Origin: Perkinsus olseni
Taxonomy: Eukaryota
Assembly: GCA_013115125.1 (NCBI GenBank)
Contig: JABANN010000290.1
Location: 1-42,184 of the forward strand
Direction of reading: 5' to 3'
DNA length: 42,184 bases
A program made the position numbers and the translations under genes. Under the pieces are notes generated by a model. It was given only the letters and a program-made list of their open reading frames with translations. It had not been told where the DNA came from and did not search any database. Positions 604-42,184 of this stretch are shown here, piece after piece; within the stretch, counting starts at the first letter, position 1; every line of letters begins with the position of its first letter.

Positions 604-1604
604 TAGGGACATCATCCGGGACATGTGCTAGTAACTTGAGATTTCACATTTTCGTTCCTCAGGCTTCAAGATACGTTGTTCCAGGATACAGTCGTAAGGT
701 GGTACCATTCGGGGGTGTCAACCGGTCCTAGGGAACGCCGAGCTGCATCCAACCTGATCGATCTCCGTTCGCCGCCCAAGCGCGTCCGCTCTCCTACTGT
801 GCCGCCCGAATCAGACTGCACCCGAGTCTGTAGGAGGGAGTAGTGAATCAGTACTAGTGATCGCTGAGCAAACATTGCTCAGTTGTTACTACCGAATTGG
901 TGCCTCGCACAGTGCGAGTCGCACTTTAATTTCTTTATGCTCATGCCGGATGAGTCATGCCGCATGACTCATGCGGTATAGCCGTAGTAGGATACCTGTT
1001 ATACCAGTCCCCTTTTCGAGCGCACAGACCTCGACTGTGGGTTGTGTTGTCACTAAGGAGTGTTGCGGGACTAACTTTGGGGTTTTATTAACCTGGAACG
1101 CGGGGCGGAATTTCCAAAAGGAAAAACATCCAATAAACATGCCATTCCACGGTGGAAAGGAAGATTATTGCATGTTTTCCCTTTTTTTCGCGCGCTTCGC
1201 GCGCGCCCTATATGGTTCGTCGGACTAACGAGTGTCTTTGGTTCGATCCCCAGGCCCTCCATTTTTCCACATTTTTTAATTGTTTCATTGTTGTGCGAGC
1301 AATTATTTCTTTCCTTCAAAACTAAAAACTTTTCGAAAGGAAATAATTCGTCGGCGCGCGTCTGGGAAACCCTGCTACCGACGATAGGACGATTTATTTT
1401 AGTTACAGGCTCGGTAGTCGCACGCCATACCGTTGGCAGTGGCTGTACACAGCGGGAGACCTCTGCGTCTTTTGCCAAGGGACTTGTGCGATAGCATTCC
1501 AAGCACGAATGTTGGGACAACTGGGGTTCAGATCACGAGACGCATTCGCTGCGTAAGTGTTGTTGAACCTTTCAAGTTAAAAGCATCTAAAACCGTCTTT
1601 CGTG

Positions 1605-2723
1605 ATGCCCCAGCTAATCAACTCGTGGAACATTCTGGCTTCTATCATTCTTCTGGCTGCCAATGGCCAGATCATGAGGCTACTGACGCACTACGCTGAC
1701 TCACCCCCCTATGGCTTCGGATTGTTCCACACTCTGGCCAACGGTCGTGGACAGCGCACGACCGCTCTCGTCGACACTGGGTCCGACTTCTTCTTCTTTG
1801 TCTGGAAGGATTGGTACGAAGCGGCGACTAAGAGGAGTTGCAGTACTATTGCCGCCGGCTGCTTCAAGTGCGAGGGTCCTTGTGCGCCTAAGCAACCGAT
1901 AAAACAGGGCGAGTATGAAGATGGTGTCAAAATCAAGGTTTTCCAGCACAAAGAGAAGATAAAGGTTGGCCAGACCTACGTCAACGACCTCGTCTTCGGG
2001 TTGATATTCGACCAGGCCCCTCCTCCAACTCAGGAGTCTCCGATCAGCATACTCGGTCTTGCCCCAGATGAGGGTGATCCGAACTTTCCCTCTCTGATGA
2101 AGCAGCTCCGGGCGAAGGGGTTTATCGGGAGCAGTATCTTCGCTCTTTATCTCTTCCCGTCCAGTCTGCCCTTACTTGACGGTGGTCTACTCCTAGGAGG
2201 AGGTGACCCGAGTTTGCATATGAACCCGATGCATTTCACCGAGCTGCGGACTGGTGATGGTTATTATATGGTCAAACTTGGTACCCTACAAGTTGGTGAT
2301 GCGCATAAAACTATCGGCATCAACGAAGACGTCACCCTTGATACCGGCACCAATTTTCTATACGTCTCGAAGCTCTATTACGACACAGTCATAAAGGATA
2401 TCAAAGCTCAGGCTAACAAGGCTGCCCGCAAGACAGTCCCGATCACGTTCGATTCTGGCAGAGACGTGTGGACTTTCCCTTGCCAATACCTGACCGTCAT
2501 GCCCCCACTGGCTTTCGGGCTGAGCGCCAAGGGAACTGTCCCATTGACGATGACCTATATGAACTATGCCAGGAACGACGAAGGTTACTGTCACTTCATT
2601 ATCAAGAAAGAAGACGATAATTCTTGGACGTTCCCTGATCGTATGCTTATTGGGAACTATTTCGAATTCCAACCTGACCAACGCCGGGTTGGAATCGCAC
2701 GACTGGCGGGCAACCGAGAGTAG
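1605..2723 (+). CDS. Secreted pepsin-like (A1) aspartic protease, intronless
   Basis: Hydrophobic signal peptide, two catalytic motifs (LVDTGS, TLDTGT), flap Tyr (GEYEDG), ILGL, LLLGG and C-terminal RVGIA. First ATG is at 1605; the ORF track starts at GTG 1602. Confidence 0.92.
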   Translation: MPQLINSWNILASIILLAANGQIMRLLTHYADSPPYGFGLFHTLANGRGQRTTALVDTGSDFFFFVWKDWYEAATKRSCSTIAAGCFKCEGPCAPKQPIKQGEYEDGVKIKVFQHKEKIKVGQTYVNDLVFGLIFDQAPPPTQESPISILGLAPDEGDPNFPSLMKQLRAKGFIGSSIFALYLFPSSLPLLDGGLLLGGGDPSLHMNPMHFTELRTGDGYYMVKLGTLQVGDAHKTIGINEDVTLDTGTNFLYVSKLYYDTVIKDIKAQANKAARKTVPITFDSGRDVWTFPCQYLTVMPPLAFGLSAKGTVPLTMTYMNYARNDEGYCHFIIKKEDDNSWTFPDRMLIGNYFEFQPDQRRVGIARLAGNRE

Positions 2724-17862: not shown

Positions 17863-17872
17863 NNNNNNNNNN
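17863..17872. other. Assembly gap (10 N)
   Basis: Run of n flanked by C-rich, low-quality-looking sequence. Confidence 1.
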
Positions 17873-28831: not shown

Positions 28832-30055
28832 AAAGAGACTTCTAATCTTTAAACTCAGGTTTTCTGTATTTCTCAGACCATATTCATTTTCAATTTTCGT
28901 GTTCTCATCATTTTGTTTTTCTTGTATAGAAGTAGTGTAGTCACAACAGTGCAGTGATCGCTAATTAGATTGTACGATCGCTCTTGATGGGAATCCTAGA
29001 TTCTGCGCAGTCCTCGAGTCAACCTCACACAATTGAAAACAGTACGGCATGCTTCGCTCTTCGCGTTGCCGTGGCATTTTCCTACTGGCTTCATTTCTTT
29101 TCAGCAACCAGCAAGAAGACCGAAGAAACCGAGAAAAAGTGAAGACACAGCGAAGCCGAAACTTTGACTGGCGTGTGCTGCTGCTGCTACTACCAGTCGC
29201 GGCCTTGCACACTATAGAGCGACGGCGGTCGTGGTTGTTGTTGCAGATGTCTGCATATTGCCGATGTTACATTTTCTATTCCAATACTAATAAAAGAAGA
29301 AGATTTATATCCTTTGAATAACGAGGGTTACTGCAAACGCGGCGACGGTTTAGGTGATGTTGCGGCGGAGTTATGGTATTCCTGAGGTTTCATAAGGAAT
29401 TCTGAACTCGTGTTCGTCAGTTTACAGAGGAACGGGAGTAGCACAGGTATTGAAAGGCAGTGAGTTCGAGCTACTCGGATAACACGTGTGATGTTGGGGA
29501 AGAGTGGTATTGATGACGTCTTTCCCTCACCGCGTTGGAAAGCGTAGACTACCGTGTTACTATATCCTAATATTATCGCATTTTAATATTATTACCACCG
29601 GAATGAGAATGCATCCCGGAATGTCGATGGCCTCCTCCCTGTAAGAGCAACACTCTTTGGCTTGATGAACAGGCTAAACTGACCCCCCCCCCACGGAAAG
29701 GTACATCGGTGCTAGTCTGACTAAGCCGTACTGTCGTAGGCGTTGGACTTTGAACTCACACACACGAGAATGAATTTTCGATAACCACGTTAGGTGAATT
29801 GGTCAGCTAACCGCTGGGTACCGCGATTGTTTTGGGAATCGCCTTGGGTGAGAAAAATGCGGTTAATACGTCAAGACTTGACGGTGACCTCTGCGGTGCC
29901 TTATCCAGTTAGTCCAATTGCTGCTACTGCGAAGAGCGGAGGTGAAACTATTATCAGAATGGAGTACAACGCAAAAAGCACGGGGAAGTAACACATCATT
30001 GCCACCAAAATTGTTTCAACAATCGTGGGCAGTGAACATGACTTAGCAAGCACGC

Positions 30056-33000
30056 TCACTCCATCCTGAGAACCAGGACAGGAAAAAGGAGCGCGACGAG
30101 GCAAAAGCCCACCTCATTCGTTTGTAGTGGTGGTGAAGAATCTGCGGTCGAAGCTTCTCAAGAAGGACTACGAACTGATCGATCGTGTCGTTGTTGAATC
30201 CTATCAACCTGAGGACGTCAATTTCTGCCATAAAATCGTGGACTGCAACGGGCGTCCACCTGAGACACTTCTGAATGTTCAGGAAAAAGCAATCCAGGTG
30301 GTAGTCGGTCATCGCAACGATCTCGTGGACCTCCTCGAGGCTCCTTCCTTTGTACTCACTCGGACCTCCAAAAATCTAAAGCGCGATGCTCAGGTAAACA
30401 GCCCAGTGCTGGCAACCTGGATCACTCCGATGAAGTAGTCCGTCTGTGCCTTCTTTATCGCCTGCAATTTAGCCTCGCCCTCAAAAAACATGTGAATTCG
30501 CTTATCGCGCTCCACACACTCGTACCTTCGACAAGCTAACCTCGGTGCCCGCGGTGGGCACCATCACCCTCGACGTGTCCTTACAGTTGATCCACGAATT
30601 TCTCCACGCCTTGGATCTTCCCGATTCTTCGGAATAATTCGTCAACGCCGTCCTCATTATTCCTTCGCTCCGCTGCATCCATGCGTACGCGAGAGCCTGA
30701 TTCCTCCAGATGAGAAGACCCACCGTTACGATGATGAAAACCCACCTGTTATTATCTCAGAGCGCACAGAGTTGAGTATCCGCAGCGAGTCGGGTATCAC
30801 CTACCAGTAAGAGCGCTCGAACTCGAGTTGATTTCCGTGATATCGGCTGGCCATGTTTCAAGCCACGATATTCAATGCCCCTACGTTAATTTCTTTCTCT
30901 TCATACAGTTATACAATACTTCGTTTTCACTTTCGTTTACTTGAATTTTTGGTCCTCAGTGACCGAGCGGATTTCGGAACAAATGCTAGGCCTCACGTCT
31001 TCATCTATCTCCTCGAGCTCCTCCGCGCTTTTAACGAAGCATTCAAGGACGGCATCGAAATGGTAATCGGAGATGTTCATGTCATAGTGGGTAGGTTTGA
31101 GGTTGTCTTGGTCGTATCTGGCGAGGCTCGTGGATCGGGTACGGAGCGAAAGCCGGGCTGGATTACTGTACAAGTCCGCCGAAGGCTCCTGAGAGGAACT
31201 GATAGAGTTTGGTAGTTATAGAACGTTCCTTGGCTTTGTTCTTATCGAAGTGGAATCTGAAACACATTCAGAGCCCGATTAGTTCAGCTGGATAGAATGT
31301 CTGCCTACGGAGCAGATGGTCGTAGGTTCGAATCCTGCATCGGGTATTTCACGTCATGTCTTACTTGATGCGGCTATCTTCCGTAAAGTACTGAAACATC
31401 CCCTCCGCCACCGCTTCCAGATTGCTATCACCCCCGATGCGTTCAAGTAAGTTGAGCCCATTACGGGGCTCTATCACTATCTCCGACTGCCGATCCAGCA
31501 CCGCATTGCGGACCTGAGGCGACGTGTATGGCCGCGGACTCCGACTCTCGGAAGGGCCTCTCACTGAGTCTAGCGTAATGATGACTTCATCCACCAGGCT
31601 GTCCTCATGGCCTTGGGAAAGCAGAGCCCTCGACATGTTCGACAAGAAGGCGTCAAAGTGATAGTCCGTGATCCCCAATGGTTCGTGAATATCTGCGATC
31701 GAAGAGGGTAGGCGGCCCTTTCAGCGCCACTCTCACCTGTGAGGTCTCGCCCTTCATACTCGGGAGGGCCACCGAACAGTTCTACGAAGAAACTGAACAG
31801 AACCACTAGGAAGGTAGAAGCGGTTGCTGCTTACACTATCGTTGCTTCCTTTATGAACTGAATACTGTCCGCGGGGAAGAAGTCTTTGATTCTGTTGTCT
31901 TTGGCGATGAGGTGGAAGAGGGAGTCCATCAGCCGGGTGATGCCTTCCCACTCGACTGCACAACACGAGCATGCGCGATAGCGTCGCAAGCAGACAGTGT
32001 CCTACAGAGCCGCTCGTAGAGCCCCTCGCCTTCTTCGCTCCGGGCAAGGTTTTGGCGAGCCATCTCGCGACGAACTGTGCATCCGGTTGTTATCTCTGGC
32101 CGCAGTTTCTGTAGTATCTACCAAGCGTTCCATAACGGTGGATGCGGCAGTGGGCTGCTCGTCTGAGTTTATTCTATCAGCCAAGCCTTGGGGTCACCGG
32201 AACGTCACAAAGACCAGAGGCGAGTCATGATGGTCAGTGTCATTGATAGTGCTAGACCGACGATAAAGTCGAACTGCTGACGACCTACCGAAAGGAGCTC
32301 GTCAAGATCTGCCGAACTGATATGGAGAGCTTCGCCGGCCTGTCTGATGAGACATATAACGGCGTCGAAGTGGAAGTCTGTGATGTTCATGGAATAGTGT
32401 GACGGTTTCAAGTCCGCTAGATCGTATCTGGATGGTCACCTCCCGTAGGGGCTTCGAGAGCTCTCGAGGAGGGCTACTGTTTCGATCCTCCGGTTACAGT
32501 TCCTATCAACTGAGTGATCTTTTTCTTGATGGTAGCTATCTTCGCCTTGTTCTTCTCGAAGAAGCTTCTTGTACCTGACCGTACACCCTCCTCCGGCGGC
32601 ACGGCAAGACACCACGGGGAGATATCACTCGGGGTGCCCTAGGGATGCAGAAAGCCGGCGATTCGGCCGTCTAACAAGGGGAGCAGCTCCCGGCTGCCTA
32701 CTGCTGGAATGAGGCGAGCGTCAGGGCTACAGGTAACGGCGTGGTGATTAGTGGGCGGGATGTTTGGAGTATATTCAGAGCCTGATTAGTTCAGCTGGAT
32801 AGAATGTCTGCCTACGGAGCAGATGGTCGTAGGTTCGAATCCTGCATCGGGTATTTTCGCACCCTACTAGCGACTTGGACTCGACAAAAACACCGCCCTT
32901 CGTACGTGAATCCTCCATCGCCTCAGCATAGAATATGTCCGATAGTTTAGCTATCGACATTTCGCCACCAAGTCGCTCATACAGAGGCTTCTTGTTCGCC

Positions 33001-36000
33001 ATCGCTTGAGCTCGTCTCACCTGAGCCACTGATACCCGCCGCCGCCGCCGGCCATTCACCGGCCGTTCAGGCTCCCTTACATCATGATCAGCCGGTTTGA
33101 CTATCTGGGAACGGCACGTCTCCATTAGTATAACGCAGGAGTCTATTGTCTCAGGGTCTTGGTCAGCCTCCTCTAGAACTGAACGGCACGAAGCAACGGA
33201 ACCATCGGTGATACGTCTAACGGATGTATAGATCTCGACTCGGGCATATCATATGGGATGAGTTTCGCGGTTTGTCCTTGAGGGGAACGACCCAGACAGA
33301 AACAAGAAGAAATTCGGAATTGCCGTATTTCGTTGCATACCAATATGTGTGAAGCTATTGATCTGAAATTTTCCTACTACTTGGCCGATTTGACATCCGT
33401 GGATGCATAAACTCTAAGAATCAGCCGGTAATGATGGCTCCCCTCGCTAAGCAAGGACTTCGTATTCACAGCCTCTATCGAGTGCGCGTTACAGCAAGTA
33501 GGGAGGGGGCAGTTATAAGAGCTGACATCCAGTCAACTTATTTAAGGATGACTTCTCCCTCCCAAAGCGTTGATCGTTCCTCACCCGTCTTCATCAGATT
33601 CACGAAGGCGTCCATATGGTAGTCATATATGTCGATCATCTGATGGATCCGTTTGAGGTCTCGTCCCTTGTACCTGGAAACACGAGGATGATATCTTCGC
33701 CAGCTCAGTGTCTGTCAGAGGAAGAAGCCTATCCCGGTGAGGACAATCTCCAATCTTTCTGTGTGGGAGCTCCCATTCCAACGCGCGCACCGGTTCGGTG
33801 AGACTCTCGCCGATGCGTTCAGTTAAAGGCTCTCGGGAGCGATTGATATGCAGTGCGGTTACGATGTGCTCAGGACTTTTCGGACGAAGCGCTGAGTTTT
33901 TAGGATTTCCCCGCACTGAGTCTGCAAAACAGCCTCCGTGTTTTCCCCAACGGACTCTCTAGGTGAGCTAACCTACTCCTCCGCTCCACCGAACAGGTGT
34001 GTTAGGAACTTAGTCTGAGCTCGGGCAATGGCGCCCAGCTTCGCTCCGCTCAAAAATGGAGATAGTCGTTCATCTTTGTCCACTTGCCTGAGTTAACAAC
34101 ATCGTGAAGGGCTCGGGCGAGACCGGTGTCTCACTCGTAAAGTCGTTCCACTGCCTTCGCGATACCCTGCTCTCCCCCGAGCTGTTTGAAGAGCCCCTCC
34201 GTGCCTTTCAAAAGACACGGCCGTGAGGGAACTCCAGCAACACGTCATGTAGCACAGAAAAAGGTAGCTGCGCACCCCCACCTCCAATCTCAGTCCGCCT
34301 CTTGGCGAGCTCTAACCGGACTGTGCAGCCGGCTGTGATGATCCCTCGGACATGAGACACACACGCCAGGAAGTCCACCTTTGCCTGAGGAAGTCGCGGC
34401 AGTGGTATGTAGGCATCCATCCACCTTCCCATGGACGAGAAGCCACGAGCGTCGCCATTTAGCACGACGATGGACAGGGATAATGCGATCAATTTCGAAG
34501 TAGCAATGAAAGACAGCGCTCTAGTACGCTCCTCGCAAGAAGACAGAGTGATCATTGATGCCTCCTGTCGACACACAAAGACCCTCACCGTCTTCTCAAT
34601 CTCCATCAGCTCGCAGGCTACCTTCATATTCTCCATCAGCGCGTCGAAGTGATAGTCAGTAATGTTGATACCTGTCAGTAGGCGCATCGCTCAGCTCACC
34701 ACAGACAAGGCAGACCTCGGTGCATCTCCTTCAGCGCTTTGACGTCAAAGTGGACCTCGGGGGCTCCTGTTATCATCGACAGGAAAGTACACATCCTCTC
34801 CTTTATCTGCTCAACCTACAACAGAACCGCTATGATCCGTCGGTACACAGCTGATTAAGATCGACAATCTCAAAGCACCAATCTCCTGGTTGAGGCGCTC
34901 TATGCCATTCCGGTGGAGGCAGTTACAACTACCTCTATTTCGATTGCTCCCATATCGGAATAGCAAGAAGCAGGAGTGTGGTCATTCTCTCAACGGAAGA
35001 GGCCTTTCCTGCCCACTCACTCGGTCCTTCGGCAGATCGAAGAAGAACTTGATGCGTGGATCCAGCAGGGCTCCGCTGTACATCGTCTCCACGACAGCCT
35101 CCAGGTTCATGTCTCCACCAATTCGCTCAAATATAGTCGCGCCTGAGTTCCCAACGGCTCCCACTAACCGGACTGTTAGAAAGGTCTCTCACCATCCACG
35201 AGTTTGAACTGGGACAGTTGGTCCCTCTTCCTGTTCAGGACATTCGGGCGAGCGAACTCGAGAGTGATCAGCACCTGCGATATCTCCGGTCGCGCTGAGG
35301 TGACGCCGTCACGCTGGACGCACCTCGGCGATGATATCCTCGTCTACCCCAAGTCCGTGGAGAGCCTTCTCCGCGTTCATCAGGAAACAGTCGAAGTAGA
35401 AGTCGTCCAGGCCTGAATAGGAGGGCGGTAGCGCTTTGAAGTCGTTATTCCGGGGCTTTCCAGGGAGGGCTTTTTCGAAATCATGTACTCGGATGAGGTC
35501 TCACAATGCTCGGCAAGCTACAGAGGATATACATAAGCAGCCCGTCTAGCTCAGTCGGTAGAGCGCAAGGCTCTTAACCTTGTGGTCGTGGGTTCGAGCC
35601 CCACGGTGGGTGCATTTCACGAAACACACTCAATTATCCTCGGATAATGTATGGTAGAGTAGAACAGCCTCCTAGAGAACCCTCCTCACCAAGCCCTCTA
35701 TGTATTTCCTCCAATTCTCGACCCTTGTACTCCTTCGGACCACCAAAACGCTCCGTCAAGTAGGCTCGGAGGGCGGTACGGATTCGGTGTAGGTCTCTGC
35801 CTGTTTACAATCAACGCAGTCGTACCAACTCACCGGGGGCACCTCCTCACCTTGAAAGAACTTCTTCAACCTCCGGTCGACTTTGCTCAAGTCGAAGAGC
35901 CTCTTAATAAAGTCTTCGAGCCCTTCGCCATAACCCACCTTAACGAACATCATGTCCGTACCTGAGCTCGAGGCGCGCGCTTCCGTAGGAGCGCGTGAGA

Positions 36001-38583
36001 GGCACGGCACACGAGGGGCAAGACACGTACCCGTCTCTTCATTCTTCTTGGCGACTTCCATACGAACAGTACAGCCCGTGGTTATCAACTTACGACAACG
36101 CCCGAGCTCAGCCAGGCCATCGGTGATCGCATTCGGATGGATATCTGGAGAACTTCTGATACTCCCGTACAGCGAAGCGACCGAGAGAGCCGATCAAGCG
36201 CGCAAGATAGAAACTAGACTTGGTTACCTAGCTCGTTGAAGACCTGCTGAAACATCTCCAGGACTGCATCAAAGTGATAGTCGGTGATGTTCATGTGGTA
36301 GTGCACCGGCTGGATATTCTCTTCGTCATACCTTGAAGAAAGAGGAGCTCTGGGAGCTCTGGGTGGCCGAACTGGCGATGGGTCGTCGTGAGAGCTCCCT
36401 ACGACGTTGTACACACAGGACGTTATAGTGCTCGTAGCATTCCCCACAGGAGAGAACGTCTAATTACTGAGAATGGAATTATTTCGGTCGCTTAGTACGC
36501 CAGGTGACGGAGAGCCGCGGGTCTGGGCCAGACCGTCTGGCAAACCCCAGCAGAACCTCCAACAACCACGAGGGCCCGTCCAAGAGCTGATCTCGCGACT
36601 CACGTTTTCGGACCGCCAAAGAGTCCGGTAACGAAGCTGCACATCTTCGCCTTAATGGAGTCCATCTTCTTCTGATTCTTCTCGAAGTGGGCTCGTGTGC
36701 GAGGGTCTCTCACTGCCTTCTCGTATACCTGCCAATCCCCTCTCCGACCTAGCGATCTCGAAATCGGCAGTGGGAGTGATAGAAATATTATGCTCAGATA
36801 TCAACTAGCACTGCTCAGTAATGACGTCCAAGCCAGCTTCGACAGGCGATCAATGTACAGTAGAAGCTAGATCGTTCTCAAGGTCCGTAGATGGCTCACT
36901 ATAAGATACTCAACACGCGTAAGAATAAATCCGACCAAGCGCGCATCAAGGCAAACTCACCAGCTCTATCGCTGTCTCCAAGTTGAGATCTCCGCCAAGC
37001 CGCTCAAACCTGAGCAACAGAAAAGCTTTATAACATTCATTATGCAGCTCATTGAGCATATAATGCCCTGTGGCCGCTGATGGCGCCTAATGACGCTCAC
37101 TCCGAGCTACCGAGGGCAGTAGTAGCTCCCCTAGGTCATAATTACGTCAAGACGGGATCCTCAAACATCCTCAAAGCTCTACGAAGCGCGAAGTCGCCGA
37201 GGACGAGAGCCTTCACAATCTACTCACAGAGACTGCTTCGGATCATCCACCTTCTCCCTCCCACGAAGGCCGTCTGCTCCATCACCCTCGCCAGCCTGCT
37301 GAGTCTTGGCCGCCACCTCGTCTATCTGATGTCACCGAAGATATCTCTATCGATACTAAGCGCACGGTGCTTCATACCAAGTATCGGAATTTGTTGATGT
37401 TAATTTTCGCTTTGACCATCTGGTCCACCAACCTCTCCTTGGGTACATCTGTTGTCCCTGAAAGTTCACATTCTACGTGTCCTCCTGCTTTGGTTACTGC
37501 TACAAGTTAATGCGTGCCGGCCGCACGGTACGAACTGGTATGAAACCCCTTGGGAAGAGATTCCAACAACTTTCAGATCGTCATTCCGGCTGCACGAGGC
37601 AAACAATGAGATCAATACATACTCCTATATACCCACCAACATGGGGCCACCCAAAGAAAGCAGTCTAACGATATGCATAGTACTCACACTAGCAACAATC
37701 TTATAATAATATCATCATCATAAGATTTATCATTGGAACATAGGGTGGGCCTCTTGGTAGGTATATAGGGGGATGTATTGATCCCATAGTTTGCCTTGTG
37801 CAGCCGCAATGACGATCTGAGAGTTGTTCGGATTCCTTCCCGAGGCTTCCATACCGGTTGATGATACCGTGAGTCCGACACAAGAATAGCGAAATTAAAA
37901 ATATTTCCTAACGATACATCTTCGAATCGATACTTCGATTATCCTGGAGAATAATAATCGACCTTCTGATGTATCATTACCGCATCGAGCTCAAAGATCA
38001 GGAATTGTATTATTGCTGAGAACATCTCTCAAGATTTCACTAGAAAATGGAATATTGAAATAAATTGATATTTGATAGGCTTAATAATGGCCCAATGGGA
38101 CCCCGAGTGTGTGTGAGTTTGTACTCCAACGCTGGCGATTCCAGCTTAGTTAGACTCTTGCCGATGTGCTCAGTTGGAGAGTCTCCAATGGAGACTCTCT
38201 GTAGCGTTGACATTCAATGCAATCAGGCAGATTATCGAGACGACCCGAGTGTGCAGCTTACCCTTTCCCTTAGAGTTCGGCATCGCAGTCTCGACAGCCT
38301 GCCGCAGATAGTTCATTTGAACGCTGACAAAGAAGGCGGCTCCCCTGCAATGCTCTCCGATCTCGAGGATACATACACTAGCTTTGCCACACGGTCCTTG
38401 ATGAAGACCATATCGCTATGCGCTTTCGATATACCTGAACAGCAGCACCAATACCAATATCAGGCGATGGGCCCTGGGAGAGATGGTACTGTCATTCAGC
38501 TTGTTTGCCTGATCGGACTTGGAGAGGAGAGTTTCATAGGGTGCTGGTCGGCTCTCCGCAGCTGTTCTCTCGACAGCAGACAT
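30056..38583 (-). CDS. Multidomain group I truncated hemoglobin: N-terminal coiled coil plus 8 tandem 2/2 globin domains, (A-B)x4
   Basis: Phase-consistent GT-AG splicing from ATG 38583 (MSAVERT) to TGA 30056-30058. Eight repeats of L(F/Y)ERxGG...(Y/F)...DxR...FF...GG...Y...H(F8)...ITDxHFD. The globin exons are well supported; the 5'-most exons are less certain. Confidence 0.88.
31273..31346 (+). tRNA. tRNA-Arg(ACG), antisense within globin intron 31257-31364
   Basis: Full cloverleaf: GCCCGAT/ATCGGGT acceptor stem, TCTGC-CTACGGA-GCAGA anticodon arm, GGTTCGAATCC T-loop. Confidence 0.96.
32780..32853 (+). tRNA. tRNA-Arg(ACG), antisense within globin intron 32575-32905
   Basis: Same as 31273-31346 except one C>T change giving a U-G acceptor pair; followed by TTTT. 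Confidence 0.95.
35540..35612 (+). tRNA. tRNA-Lys(CTT), antisense within globin intron 35413-35689
   Basis: GCCCGTCTAGCTCAGTCGGTAGAGCGCAAGGCTCTTAACCTTGTGGTCGTGGGTTCGAGCCCCACGGTGGGTG, a canonical eukaryotic Lys-CTT cloverleaf. Confidence 0.96.
37524..37871. repeat. Foldback/MITE-like inverted repeat, ~130-bp arms, ~90-bp spacer
   Basis: 37524-37652 matches the reverse complement of 37743-37871 (e.g. aacaactYtcagatcgtcattScggctgcacRaggcaaac), roughly 80% by eye. Lies in the modelled globin intron 37458-38261. Confidence 0.85.
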
Positions 38584-38931
38584 GTCGAGAGAAACAAACA
38601 ACTGCCATTCGGGAGTCCAATCGCCTACAATCGGAAGTGTGACCTGCTAGAAATTCGAAGATGGTGACTTCGAGGTGTAATGACAATGCAATTAGAGTAT
38701 AGCTGATCCAATGTCTTGGTAAGATGGGCTGGAAGACGTAGCCCAAGAGAAGGCGCTTCCCGTCCATCACGCTCAGCTGAGCTGCACCCGGCTTGGGGTG
38801 TGTGAGAAAAGACGCTAAGCGGGCCTCCGCGAGCTTCAACATCAAATGGCAGTGTACGTGACGTCTCACGATGCGTCCAAGTAGCCAGTTGACCCTCCAT
38901 CGCATTGAGGAGTAACTCATAATCACATCTC

Positions 38932-39003
38932 GGTTCTATGGTGTAACGGTTAGCACTCCAGACTCTGAATCTGGCGATCTGGGTTCAAATCCCGGTAGAA
39001 CCT
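38932..39003 (+). tRNA. tRNA-Gln(CTG)
   Basis: GGTTCTA/TAGAACC acceptor stem, CCAGA-CTCTGAA-TCTGG anticodon arm, GGTTCAAATCC T-loop, TTTT terminator. Confidence 0.96.
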
Positions 39004-42112: not shown

Positions 42113-42184
42113 GGTTCTATGGTGTAACGGTTAGCACTCCAGACTCTGAATCTGGCGATCTGGGTTCAAATCCCGGTAGAACCT
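42113..42184 (+). tRNA. tRNA-Gln(CTG), identical to 38932-39003
   Basis: Exact 72-nt copy; the window ends at its last base. Confidence 0.95.

What the first reader, a model, noticed from the sequence alone, without database searches (positions are those of the whole stretch)
30056..38583. Eight-domain truncated hemoglobin built as a didomain repeated four times
Seen: splicing yields 8 globin domains at roughly D1 37010-36080, D2 35955-35230, D3 35140-34330, D4 34200-33095, D5 32990-32085, D6 32015-31490, D7 31455-30745 and D8 30640-30110. Odd domains share ERxGG(D/E)xxxE/A and (M/I)NI(T/S)DxHFD followed by a G(C/S)xVR linker. Even domains share FGG(P/A)xEYxGRxLxx(I/V)H. A His is at the proximal F8 position in all eight (PVH, EIH, EMH, RIH, PSH, DIH, PTH, EVH). 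Known: group I 2/2 globins (trHbN/GlbN) are typically ~120-aa single domains acting in NO dioxygenation or O2 binding, and the classic concatenated giant hemoglobins (Artemia, molluscs) use the 3/3 fold. Inference: a polypeptide of roughly 1100-1200 aa binding up to 8 hemes, a convergent giant hemoglobin possibly for NO/O2 handling inside a host. The ORF track hides it because of dense introns. I cannot check whether homologs are already described.
Basis: partly seen in the sequence, partly recalled or inferred. Interest (0 to 1): 0.9.

Follow-up and report, generated by a model that had tools for sequence, protein, structure and literature searches.

The report
Eight-domain truncated hemoglobin gene of Perkinsus
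An intron-rich gene of the shellfish parasite Perkinsus encodes one long protein made of eight small "truncated" hemoglobin units in an alternating two-type pattern; such multi-unit globins were already listed from genome surveys but none has been studied at the bench.

Summary
On the minus strand, 38583..30056, I built a 37-exon, 36-intron (all GT..AG) gene with an open 1189-codon frame. It encodes a 127-residue helical leader and eight group I truncated-hemoglobin domains.

The product is 1144 of 1188 aligned residues identical to a GenBank "hypothetical protein" of Perkinsus olseni. That protein gives 8 Pfam Bac_globin stretches, E 2.4e-95.

Spliced contigs of one public run confirm 13 of the 36 introns, including two first exons that the GenBank model misses.

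Odd and even domains form two clades with 100/100 support. Each position groups with the same position in paralogs and environmental relatives, so leader + (odd-even)x4 is an old, conserved architecture. P. olseni also has 14- and 16-domain models.

Only D4 and D8 carry the Mycobacterium HbN-like TyrB10/GlnE11 site. Odd-type domains favour Met at E11.

The function (NO dioxygenation or O2 binding) is inferred, not shown. Multi-unit 2/2 globins were reported in silico in 2017 (review passage), so this is a new member of a known kind.

The parts
30056..38583 (-). Coding region of the eight-domain globin gene: 37 exons, 36 GT..AG introns, 1189 codons + TGA. Exons (window coordinates, 5'->3' on the minus strand): 38583-38490;38434-38377;38323-38262;37457-37378;37325-37228;37009-36961;36728-36604;36331-36228;36144-36031;35961-35851;35800-35690;35412-35324;35274-35193;35142-35021;34815-34716;34671-34589;34384-34282;34204-34135;34087-33977;33673-33585;33178-33081;33020-32906;32574-32478;32427-32289;32117-32006;31955-31835;31792-31737;31692-31565;31513-31365;31256-31167;31117-30997;30800-30746;30696-30585;30525-30426;30375-30260;30208-30113;30065-30056
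   Evidence: Model built. 1144 of 1188 aligned residues are identical to P0001. 13 of 36 introns coincide with spliced joints in contigs of run X1.
37239..38583 (-). N-terminal leader, aa 1-127 (5 exons): two predicted amphipathic helices, a Pro/Gly/Ser loop and an acidic stretch ending in DDPKQS just before D1
   Evidence: Homologous leaders of about 105-130 aa precede the first domain in 8 other family members aligned (consensus in A2). No Pfam family was found and there was no Atlas hit. The exons are joined to each other and to D1 by RNA joints.
36080..37238 (-). D1, odd type (aa 128-245); B10 Tyr, E7 Ile, E11 Met, F8 His199 (codon 36303-36301)
   Evidence: The first exon 37009-36961 is confirmed by joints 37007>37226 and 36726>36959 and is missing from the GenBank model P0001.
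35960..36079 (-). Odd-to-even linker 1 (aa 246-262, ITTGCTVRMEVAKKNEE...), with the conserved R-x5-G-x3-R pattern
   Evidence: Invariant R246/G252/R256/A260 in A2. Mean conservation is 0.72 against 0.52 for the whole protein.
35236..35959 (-). D2, even type (aa 263-378); B10 Phe, E7 Ile, E11 Leu, F8 His332 (35702-35700)
   Evidence: The 50-nt intron 35850-35801 was chosen by homology with D4/D6/D8 and the P. marinus model. P0001 reads this stretch differently.
34334..35193 (-). D3, odd type (aa 393-511); B10 Tyr, E7 Ile, E11 Met, F8 His465 (34722-34720); the EF motif is G-A instead of G-G
   Evidence: Best PDB match is the Tetrahymena group 1 trHb 3aq5, E 6.9e-14. Joints 34669>34714 and 34383>34588.
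33099..34202 (-). D4, even type (aa 530-645); B10 Tyr, E7 Ile, E11 Gln, F8 His599 (33645-33643)
   Evidence: The first exon 34204-34135 is confirmed by joints 34203>34281 and 34086>34134 and is mis-annotated in P0001.
32088..32993 (-). D5, odd type (aa 661-778); B10 Tyr, E7 Ile, E11 Ile, F8 His732 (32399-32397)
   Evidence: Joint 33018>33079 links the D4 end to the D5 start.
31496..32030 (-). D6, even type (aa 798-913); B10 Phe, E7 Ile, E11 Thr, F8 His867 (31687-31685)
   Evidence: The single exon 32117-32006 encodes the end of D5, the linker and the start of D6.
30750..31459 (-). D7, odd type (aa 926-1044); B10 Phe, E7 Ile, E11 Leu, F8 His997 (31089-31087)
   Evidence: The single exon 31513-31365 encodes the end of D6, the linker and the start of D7.
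30136..30646 (-). D8, even type (aa 1063-1179); B10 Tyr, E7 Ile, E11 Gln, E15 Phe, F8 His1133 (30327-30325)
   Evidence: Ungapped phmmer alignments of the allele P0003 to Tetrahymena trHb (Tyr25, Gln46, Gln50) and M. tuberculosis HbN (Tyr33, Leu54, Gln58, Phe62)..

Best explanation
This is a single, expressed, intron-rich nuclear gene of Perkinsus olseni or a very close relative. It encodes a 1189-aa soluble protein made of a conserved helical leader of about 127 aa followed by eight group I (trHbN-type) 2/2 globin domains. The domains are arranged as four odd-even didomains. Within a didomain the two globins are joined by a conserved, probably helical connector of about 20 residues. Between didomains the linkers are looser.

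Shown: the gene structure, the eight domains, the two domain classes, the positional conservation and the transcription with splicing.

Inferred: each domain binds one heme b through its F8 histidine, giving up to 8 hemes. The protein works intact in the parasite's cytosol as a multi-heme ligand-handling protein. The most likely chemistry is O2-dependent NO dioxygenation at the even-type, HbN-like sites (TyrB10/GlnE11/PheE15; here D4 and D8). The other six sites, with Met, Ile, Leu or Thr at E11 and Phe at B10 in three of them, would have different and probably weaker ligand stabilisation. They could act as O2 reservoirs or redox partners.

My confidence is about 0.95 for the architecture and about 0.4 for the NO/O2 function. 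The figure given is a blend.
For: Gene and frame: 36 of 36 introns are GT..AG and the frame is open for 1189 codons. 13 of the 15 joints shown for run X1 have CT..AC ends, and all 13 coincide with model introns.

One polypeptide: RNA joints link leader-D1, D3-D4 and D4-D5. Single exons span D5|D6 and D6|D7. The introns in the remaining three boundaries are 49-69 nt.

Family: Pfam finds 8 Bac_globin stretches in P0001, E 2.4e-95. The closest solved proteins are all group I trHbs: 3aq5 at 6.9e-14 and 1idr at 7.2e-10, against 3.6e-4 for the group II protein YjbI. The AlphaFold model of the allele fragment P0003 has pLDDT 87.8 and pTM 0.74. It matches group I trHbs at TM 0.85-0.91.

Heme ligand: His F8 is present in 8 of 8 window domains and in 102 of 102 domain rows from 12 family proteins.

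Two classes: identity is 38% odd-odd, 36% even-even and 26% odd-even. The split has 100/100 support. E11 is Met in 39 of 51 odd-type rows and Gln in 39 of 51 even-type rows.

Intact function: position labels need 9 changes on the tree (minimum 7, shuffled mean 33.7), so the order of the eight domains is old. Against the P. marinus model, the domains it covers fully are 83-93% identical and the linkers 88-100%. Odd-to-even linkers are conserved at or above the protein mean.
Against: No heme, ligand or activity data exist. Only 2 of 8 domains (D4, D8) have the TyrB10/GlnE11 pair, and D2, D6 and D7 have Phe at B10 with apolar or Thr E11. There is no reductase domain.

The RNA evidence is thin. 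It comes from one run whose type is only guessed ('RNA?'), with k-mer depth mostly 2-10. The same run holds unspliced contigs (30036-30522, 32254-32732, 33150-33576, 36302-36572). One contig that is spliced at five introns still keeps intron 33674-33976, which would end the frame after 'LFGGAEE'. 15 further joints were not displayed, so 23 of 36 introns rest on homology and GT..AG alone.

The full-length model of a paralog (P0162) gave only pLDDT 72.7 and pTM 0.51, so no defined eight-domain assembly is predicted. The cytosolic location rests only on my reading of the N-terminus, which has no hydrophobic stretch.
Confidence: 0.6

Rival explanations
1. Polyprotein precursor: the 1189-aa product is cut after translation into four didomains or eight single globins, as dinoflagellates (the sister lineage) do with several tandem-unit proteins. 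That comparison is recalled knowledge, not checked here.
For: Even-to-odd linkers are predicted as coil with dips in pLDDT (residues 221-238 of the P0003 model). They are the least conserved segments, at 0.36-0.51 against 0.52. Two of them contain basic pairs (NRKRD, DVRRAQ). The full-length paralog model has no well-defined global arrangement (pTM 0.51).
Against: The three even-to-odd linkers share no motif. The units are only 20-44% identical to one another, yet each is closest to the same position in paralogs. That pattern fits fixed, non-equivalent positions rather than interchangeable released units. Linkers are 88-100% identical between P. olseni and P. marinus.
Confidence: 0.12
2. It is an oxygen (or heme) store or buffer rather than an enzyme. 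On this view the many hemes with graded affinity keep O2 available to a parasite living in bivalve tissue that becomes hypoxic when the valves close, or they sequester heme.
For: Eight heme sites have four different B10/E11 combinations, which fits graded affinities. No reductase or other catalytic domain is attached. The family has expanded to 14-16 domains in the same species, which looks like selection for capacity.
Against: Even-type domains keep the HbN-like Tyr/Gln/Phe set in most family members: Gln E11 in 39 of 51 rows. Nothing here measures affinity. This rival overlaps with the best explanation and cannot be separated from it by sequence.
Confidence: 0.2
3. Several neighbouring 1-2 domain genes, or a decaying repeat array, have been wrongly merged by gene prediction.
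For: Unspliced contigs and one retained intron with a stop occur in run X1. The database models of this family are visibly error-prone: P0001 is mis-spliced at three places, the P. marinus model P0002 carries duplicated blocks, and P0155 may be two 8-domain genes fused.
Against: The frame is open through all 37 exons. Two exons and three RNA joints cross domain boundaries. The other boundary introns are 49-69 nt, too short to hold gene ends. All eight F8 His and the fold motifs are kept. The same 8-domain order occurs in independent relatives.
Confidence: 0.03

Closest known systems
Single-domain group I truncated hemoglobins (trHbN/GlbN): Tetrahymena pyriformis trHb (3aq5), Mycobacterium tuberculosis HbN (1idr), Chlamydomonas THB1 (4xdi/6cii), Paramecium trHb (1dlw)
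   Same: Same Pfam family and the same 2/2 fold, with TM 0.85-0.91 to these chains. His F8, Phe CD1 and the EF Gly-Gly motif are present. D4 and D8 share Tyr B10, an apolar E7, Gln E11 and Phe E15 with M. tuberculosis HbN.
   Different: Here eight domains sit in one chain behind a 127-aa leader. Six of the eight distal sites lack the Tyr/Gln pair. Odd-type domains carry a derived F-G region (..YDxxxLKPxHYxMNITDxHFD) and mostly Met at E11 in the family. All trHb chains listed among the 50 best structural matches were single-domain.
Multi-unit truncated hemoglobins reported in silico (Hade, Kaur, Chakraborti, Dikshit, IUBMB Life 2017;69:479)
   Same: Tandem repeats of 2/2 globin units in one predicted protein. 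The review PMC7475203 (section 6, passage read) says that multi-unit T globins were identified in silico. It also says that T1 multi-unit sequences occur in 'ciliated protozoan parasites'.
   Different: I could not read the paper itself. I therefore cannot say whether Perkinsus proteins, the odd/even alternation, the leader or the E11 Met/Gln dichotomy are described there.
Paralogs and relatives found here: P. olseni P0155 (2375 aa, 16 domains), P0158 (14 domains), P0162/P0163 (8 domains); P. marinus PMAR024501 (P0012); dinoflagellate Biecheleria cincta P0066 (4 domains); diplonemid Lacrimia lanifica P0020 (12 domains); unnamed metagenome proteins P0007, P0013, P0015
   Same: The Perkinsus paralogs and P0007/P0013/P0015 show the same alternating odd-even pattern, and where the N-terminus is complete the same leader + 8-domain plan. 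Domains group by position.
   Different: They are 30-53% identical per domain. The domain number varies from 4 to 16. More distant relatives are runs of one type by my two-HMM labelling, which is crude for distant sequences.
Classical multi-domain 'giant' hemoglobins of animals (Artemia nine-domain chains, two-domain clam and Daphnia hemoglobins); recalled, not searched here
   Same: Several covalently linked heme-globin units in one polypeptide, which raises heme capacity per molecule.
   Different: Those use the 3/3 fold and are mostly extracellular oxygen carriers. This protein has the 2/2 fold, shows no signal-like N-terminus (my reading) and comes from a unicellular parasite.
Flavohemoglobin and the raphidophyte nitrate reductase-trHbN fusion (NR2-2/2HbN; seen only as an abstract listing for PMC9837059)
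   Same: A globin fused into a larger chain for NO conversion.
   Different: Those carry their own reductase or flavin domains. Here Pfam finds nothing but globin domains.

Membership tests
Group I truncated hemoglobin (Pfam PF01152 Bac_globin, trHbN/T1) | Match to the family profile above the curated cut-off, once per domain | tested here: met
   P0001 (1144 of 1188 aligned residues identical to the window product) gives 8 stretches, 315.5 bits against a cut-off of 21, E 2.4e-95. The spliced window product itself could not be handed to the tool. Of 10 single ORFs of the window, 7 hit the family at E <= 0.12.
Group I truncated hemoglobin (Pfam PF01152 Bac_globin, trHbN/T1) | 2-on-2 helical fold | tested here: met
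   The AlphaFold model of the allele fragment P0003 (part of D5, plus D6-D8) has pLDDT 87.8. The best Foldseek matches are group I trHbs with TM (target) 0.85-0.91 and rmsd 1.3-4.0. D1-D4 of this gene were not folded; the paralog P0162 is all-helical with the same pattern.
Group I truncated hemoglobin (Pfam PF01152 Bac_globin, trHbN/T1) | Proximal His F8 | tested here: met
   8 of 8 window domains, and 102 of 102 domain rows of 12 family proteins.
Group I truncated hemoglobin (Pfam PF01152 Bac_globin, trHbN/T1) | Gly-Gly motifs in the AB and EF corners (feature recalled from the trHb literature) | tested here: inconclusive
   EF corner: GG in 7 of 8 domains and GA in D3. AB corner: GG in D1, D3, D4, D5 and D7, but GY-GEG, FEWEG and GKIQG in D2, D6 and D8.
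Group I truncated hemoglobin (Pfam PF01152 Bac_globin, trHbN/T1) | Group I rather than group II or III | tested here: met
   The best solved relatives are group I at E 6.9e-14 to 1.1e-6. The group II protein YjbI (1ux8) scores only 3.6e-4.
Group I truncated hemoglobin (Pfam PF01152 Bac_globin, trHbN/T1) | Binds heme b | not testable with these tools
   Inferred from the conserved His F8, Phe CD1 (7 of 8 domains) and the fold.
HbN-type NO dioxygenase (M. tuberculosis HbN) | Tyr B10 / Gln E11 distal pair with an apolar E7 and Phe E15 | tested here: inconclusive
   Met in D8, shown by ungapped alignment to 1idr at Tyr33/Leu54/Gln58/Phe62, and in D4 by alignment of the domains. Not met in D1, D2, D3, D5, D6 and D7.
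HbN-type NO dioxygenase (M. tuberculosis HbN) | NO dioxygenase activity with a reductase partner | not testable with these tools
   No assay was possible and no reductase domain is in the chain.
Multi-unit truncated hemoglobins (in silico class, Hade et al. 2017) | Two or more 2/2 globin units in one polypeptide | tested here: met
   Eight units lie in one open frame. Boundaries are crossed by two exons and three RNA joints.
Cleaved tandem-unit polyprotein (dinoflagellate type; features recalled) | Near-identical units separated by a repeated cleavage motif | tested here: not met
   The units are 20-44% identical. No motif is shared by the three even-to-odd linkers. Processing itself cannot be tested here.
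Animal giant multi-domain hemoglobins | 3/3 globin fold, secreted | tested here: not met
   The fold matches are 2/2 globins. No signal-peptide program was run; the N-terminus is polar.

The most novel reading that the evidence does not exclude
The odd-even didomain is a division of labour in cis. Even-type domains (TyrB10/GlnE11/PheE15) would be the NO-dioxygenase sites. Odd-type domains, whose family consensus is TyrB10 with Met at E11, would be six-coordinate or low-affinity hemes. They would feed electrons or O2 to their even partner through the conserved helical connector. If so, the leader + (odd-even)x4 protein would be a self-contained eight-heme relay. This would be a kind of 2/2-fold 'giant hemoglobin' conserved in perkinsids and present in dinoflagellates, with no characterised counterpart that I know of.
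Probability: 0.12. Interest if true: 0.75.

Novelty: new member of a known kind. Interest (0 to 1): 0.45.

Why it matters
Perkinsus species cause major mollusc diseases and survive inside host hemocytes. A large family of 8-16-heme globins is a plausible part of how they cope with host nitric oxide and with hypoxia, but that is untested.

For globin biology, the family offers a natural experiment. Two diverged 2/2 domain types are held in a fixed alternating order over long evolutionary time, with a systematic Met-versus-Gln difference at the key distal position E11.

On the practical side, the work corrects three splice errors in the public gene model. It also shows that leader + 8 domains is the conserved unit of the family.

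The existence of multi-unit 2/2 globins is not new, so the value lies in the detail and in making bench tests easy to design.

Tried and rejected
- Whole-genome search: no genome is held for this window.
- Sequencing runs: one holder, X1, was listed and its type is only guessed ('RNA?'). No RNA holder is on record.
- Leader self-association: complex prediction with two copies of residues 1-131 gave 'no answer' (score 0.17, mark 0.32; the alignment was not used). This is no evidence either way.
- ESM Atlas search with the leader: no usable hit.
- Rfam at E <= 1 on 37400-38700, for the very deeply covered spot in the first long intron: 0 matches.
- Intron positions as a test of the duplication history: uninformative. 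One phase-2 position is shared by D1, D4, D5 and D7, across both classes. D3 and D7 share a phase-0 position. The rest differ.
- AU tests of pairings: 1+5 (p 0.365), 3+7 (0.408), 4+8 (0.301), 1+3 (0.197), 5+7 (0.172) and 1+7 (0.052). None is rejected, so the order of duplications stays open except for 2+6.
- First, quick tree: it included P0015, whose long branches and shifted numbering blurred the labels, so I dropped P0015. Of the nine proteins extracted, P0162, P0017 and P0008 were not used in either tree.
- Full-length fold of paralog P0162: pTM 0.51, no defined global shape.
- Conserved Cys in the TGCTVR linker as a functional residue: rejected, because relatives have Tyr or Trp there (consensus of A2).
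- Literature: 'Perkinsus' with 'truncated hemoglobin' gave 2 papers (1 listed, irrelevant). 'Perkinsus' with 'globin' gave 6 papers (5 listed, none on Perkinsus globins). One search gave nothing on parasite globins. One search was badly chosen and useless. Hade et al. 2017 is not held. Supplements of papers are closed and were not consulted.
- Neighbouring ORFs: only an aspartyl protease (1581-2723, +) and a weak DUF445 hit were found, with no functional link.

Full report
What the window is. GC content is about 50% throughout. The stop-to-stop ORFs on the minus strand between 30.0 and 37.1 kb carry obvious globin motifs in all three frames. A search with the last large exon found four Perkinsus proteins:
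- P0001, 'hypothetical protein FOZ60_015921 [Perkinsus olseni]', 1219 aa;
- P0002, P. marinus PMAR024802, 1505 aa;
- P0003, a 498-aa partial P. olseni protein;
- P0004, a 600-aa partial P. chesapeaki protein.
P0001 matches the window exon by exon. The window is therefore P. olseni or a very close relative. No whole genome is held for it.

Gene model. I placed the exon cores from exact matches to P0001. Each junction was solved by requiring GT/GC..AG, an open frame and agreement with the homologs. The last small intron and the stop were found by reading the sequence.
- The result is 37 exons and 36 introns, all GT..AG, of 42-804 nt (median 57). The CDS runs 38583..30056 and encodes 1189 aa without a stop.
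- 1144 of 1188 aligned residues equal P0001.
- Most of the differences sit at three places where the GenBank model is evidently mis-spliced: the first exon of D1, a 50-nt intron in D2, and the first exon of D4.

RNA evidence. One public run (X1, stored as contigs, type only guessed as RNA) holds 56% of the sampled words of the region.
- Laid on the region, it showed 15 joints, with 15 more not displayed. Of the 15 shown, 13 have CT..AC ends, which is GT..AG on the minus strand. All 13 coincide with model introns.
They also link the leader exons to D1, D3 to D4, and D4 to D5.
- Against this, the same run contains unspliced contigs (30036-30522, 32254-32732, 33150-33576, 36302-36572). One 1621-nt contig is spliced at five introns but keeps intron 33674-33976, which would stop the frame. 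Depth is low.
- The run therefore shows that spliced transcripts exist. It does not show a single full-length mRNA.
- Independent of RNA, exon 32117-32006 spans D5|D6 and exon 31513-31365 spans D6|D7. The introns at the remaining boundaries are only 49-69 nt.

Domains.
- Pfam gives 8 Bac_globin stretches for P0001 (E 2.4e-95), 6 for P0002, 3 for P0003 and 4 for P0004.
- The eight window domains align over about 118 columns with almost no gaps.
- The nearest solved proteins are all group I trHbs: Tetrahymena 3aq5 (E 6.9e-14), M. tuberculosis HbN 1idr, Synechococcus GlbN and Chlamydomonas THB1. Group II YjbI is far weaker.
- An AlphaFold model of P0003, the allele of the C-terminal 498 residues, has pLDDT 87.8 and pTM 0.74 and is all-helical. 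Foldseek matches it to group I trHbs at TM 0.85-0.91. The trHb chains among the 50 best matches are single-domain.

Two classes in a fixed order.
- Mean identity is 38% among odd domains, 36% among even domains and 26% between the classes.
- I built a maximum-likelihood tree of 47 domain rows from the window product, P0155, P0163, P0007 and P0013. P0015 was dropped after the first tree for long branches. P0162, P0017 and P0008 were extracted but not used.
- The odd|even split has 100/100 support, and D2+D6 form a clade (97/97).
- The eight position labels need only 9 changes (minimum 7; shuffled mean 33.7; as low in 0 of 200 shuffles). Each window domain is therefore closest to the domain at the same position in paralogs and in unnamed environmental relatives.
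- AU tests did not reject 1+5, 3+7, 4+8, 1+3, 5+7 or 1+7, so the order of duplications beyond 2+6 is open.
- Intron positions did not help.

Leader and linkers.
- Residues 1-127 align with the N-termini of eight other family members. The alignment shows two amphipathic helical segments, a loop and an acidic stretch ending DDxSKPL(I/F)ERLGG.
- Residues 1182-1316 of the 2375-aa P. olseni model P0155 align with this leader. P0155 looks like two leader + 8-domain units in tandem: either two genes merged by annotation or a true 16-domain chain.
- Odd-to-even linkers carry an invariant R-x5-G-x3-R pattern. They are predicted as helices of 21-22 residues (84-105 and 350-370 of P0003). Their conservation is 0.49-0.73 against a protein-wide 0.52.
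- Even-to-odd linkers are coil, with conservation 0.36-0.51.
- Against the P. marinus model, the five domains it covers fully are 83-93% identical and the linkers 88-100%.

Heme pockets.
- I counted back from the EF Gly-Gly motif. I checked the mapping with ungapped phmmer alignments of D8 to Tetrahymena trHb (Tyr25, Gln46, Gln50) and to M. tuberculosis HbN (Tyr33, Leu54, Gln58, Phe62). The PDB titles of the mutants name these positions.
- The window domains read B10/E7/E11 as: D1 Y/I/M, D2 F/I/L, D3 Y/I/M, D4 Y/I/Q, D5 Y/I/I, D6 F/I/T, D7 F/I/L, D8 Y/I/Q. His F8 is present in all eight.
- Over 102 domain rows of 12 family proteins, F8 is His in 102. E11 is Met in 39 of 51 odd-type rows and Gln in 39 of 51 even-type rows.
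- The odd/even labels of these rows come from two HMMs built on the window's own domains. The labelling is circular for close relatives and crude for distant ones.

How wide the family is.
- An exhaustive HMMER search with P0004 found 1524 representatives at E <= 1e-3, 194 at E <= 1e-10 and 38 at E <= 1e-30.
- Among the best 150, my domain HMM counts 2 or more domains in 144, 3 or more in 80, and 7 or more in 9. Ranking by summed score favours multi-domain proteins, and partial hits are included.
- Named members are P. olseni paralogs (8, 14 and 16 domains), a P. marinus paralog, the dinoflagellate Biecheleria cincta (4 domains in 1461 aa) and the diplonemid Lacrimia lanifica (12 domains). The rest are unnamed metagenome proteins.

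What is in print.
- Searches for Perkinsus with 'truncated hemoglobin' or 'globin' found nothing on the parasite's globins.
- A review (PMC7475203, section 6, passage read) states that multi-unit T globins consisting of multiple 2/2 repeats were identified in silico (Hade et al. 2017). It also states that T1 multi-unit sequences occur in 'ciliated protozoan parasites'.
- The 2017 paper is not held. I cannot tell whether Perkinsus or the alternating pattern is covered. Supplements were closed.

Mechanism.
- Shown: the gene, the domains, the classes and the conservation.
- Inferred: one heme per domain; an intact cytosolic protein; NO dioxygenation or O2 binding at the HbN-like even sites; a different role for the odd sites.
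- The polyprotein rival is disfavoured by the low identity between units, their positional conservation and the conserved linkers. It is not excluded.
- Host NO production against Perkinsus is recalled knowledge and was not verified here.
- The test of leader self-association gave no answer. The full-length paralog model gave pTM 0.51. No quaternary or global arrangement can be claimed.

Verdict. It is a well-preserved member of an already noticed but experimentally untouched class. The new points are the odd/even didomain with its Met/Gln E11 dichotomy, the conserved leader + 8 plan, and the corrected gene model.

Noticed in passing
window 31273-31346 (+), 32780-32853 (+), 35540-35613 (+): Three tRNA genes (Arg-ACG twice, Lys-CTT) lie antisense inside introns of the globin gene. 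The first fills most of the 108-nt intron 31257-31364 in D7. The second lies in intron 32575-32905 in D5, at a nearly equivalent place in the domain. The two Arg genes differ at one base and share about 10 nt of flank (84 nt at 98.8%).
   Followed up: partly
window 38932-39003 and 42113-42184 (+): There are two identical tRNA-Gln(CTG) genes 3181 nt apart. The first is about 350 nt upstream of the globin start codon. No longer repeat surrounds them.
   Followed up: partly
window 38132-38425 (inside the 804-nt first long intron 37458-38261 and exon 3): Contig depth in run X1 jumps to about 440 against 2-25 elsewhere. Many loose ends fall at 38136-38185, and one odd joint runs 31339>38139. A 23-nt palindrome lies at 38177-38199. 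Rfam finds nothing. It could be a dispersed repeat or an unknown small RNA.
   Followed up: partly
window 33674-33976: A 1621-nt contig of run X1 is spliced at five neighbouring introns but retains this 303-nt intron, which puts a stop right after 'LFGGAEE' in D4. This could be intron retention, pre-mRNA or an assembly path.
   Followed up: no
P0001 (GenBank model of this gene) against window 37009-36961, 35850-35801, 34204-34135: The public gene model is mis-spliced at three places. It lacks the first exon of D1, reads through or around the 50-nt intron in D2, and replaces the first exon of D4. Two of the three corrections are backed by RNA joints.
   Followed up: yes
P0155, P0158, P0163 (P. 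olseni paralogs, not in the window): The models have 16, 14 and 8 alternating globin domains. P0155 contains a second leader-like segment at residues 1182-1316, so it may be two tandem 8-domain genes merged.
   Followed up: partly
window 1581-2723 (+): A 380-aa open frame matches the eukaryotic aspartyl protease family (PF00026, E 2.1e-22).
   Followed up: no
window 17863-17872: A run of 10 N, which is an assembly gap.
   Followed up: no
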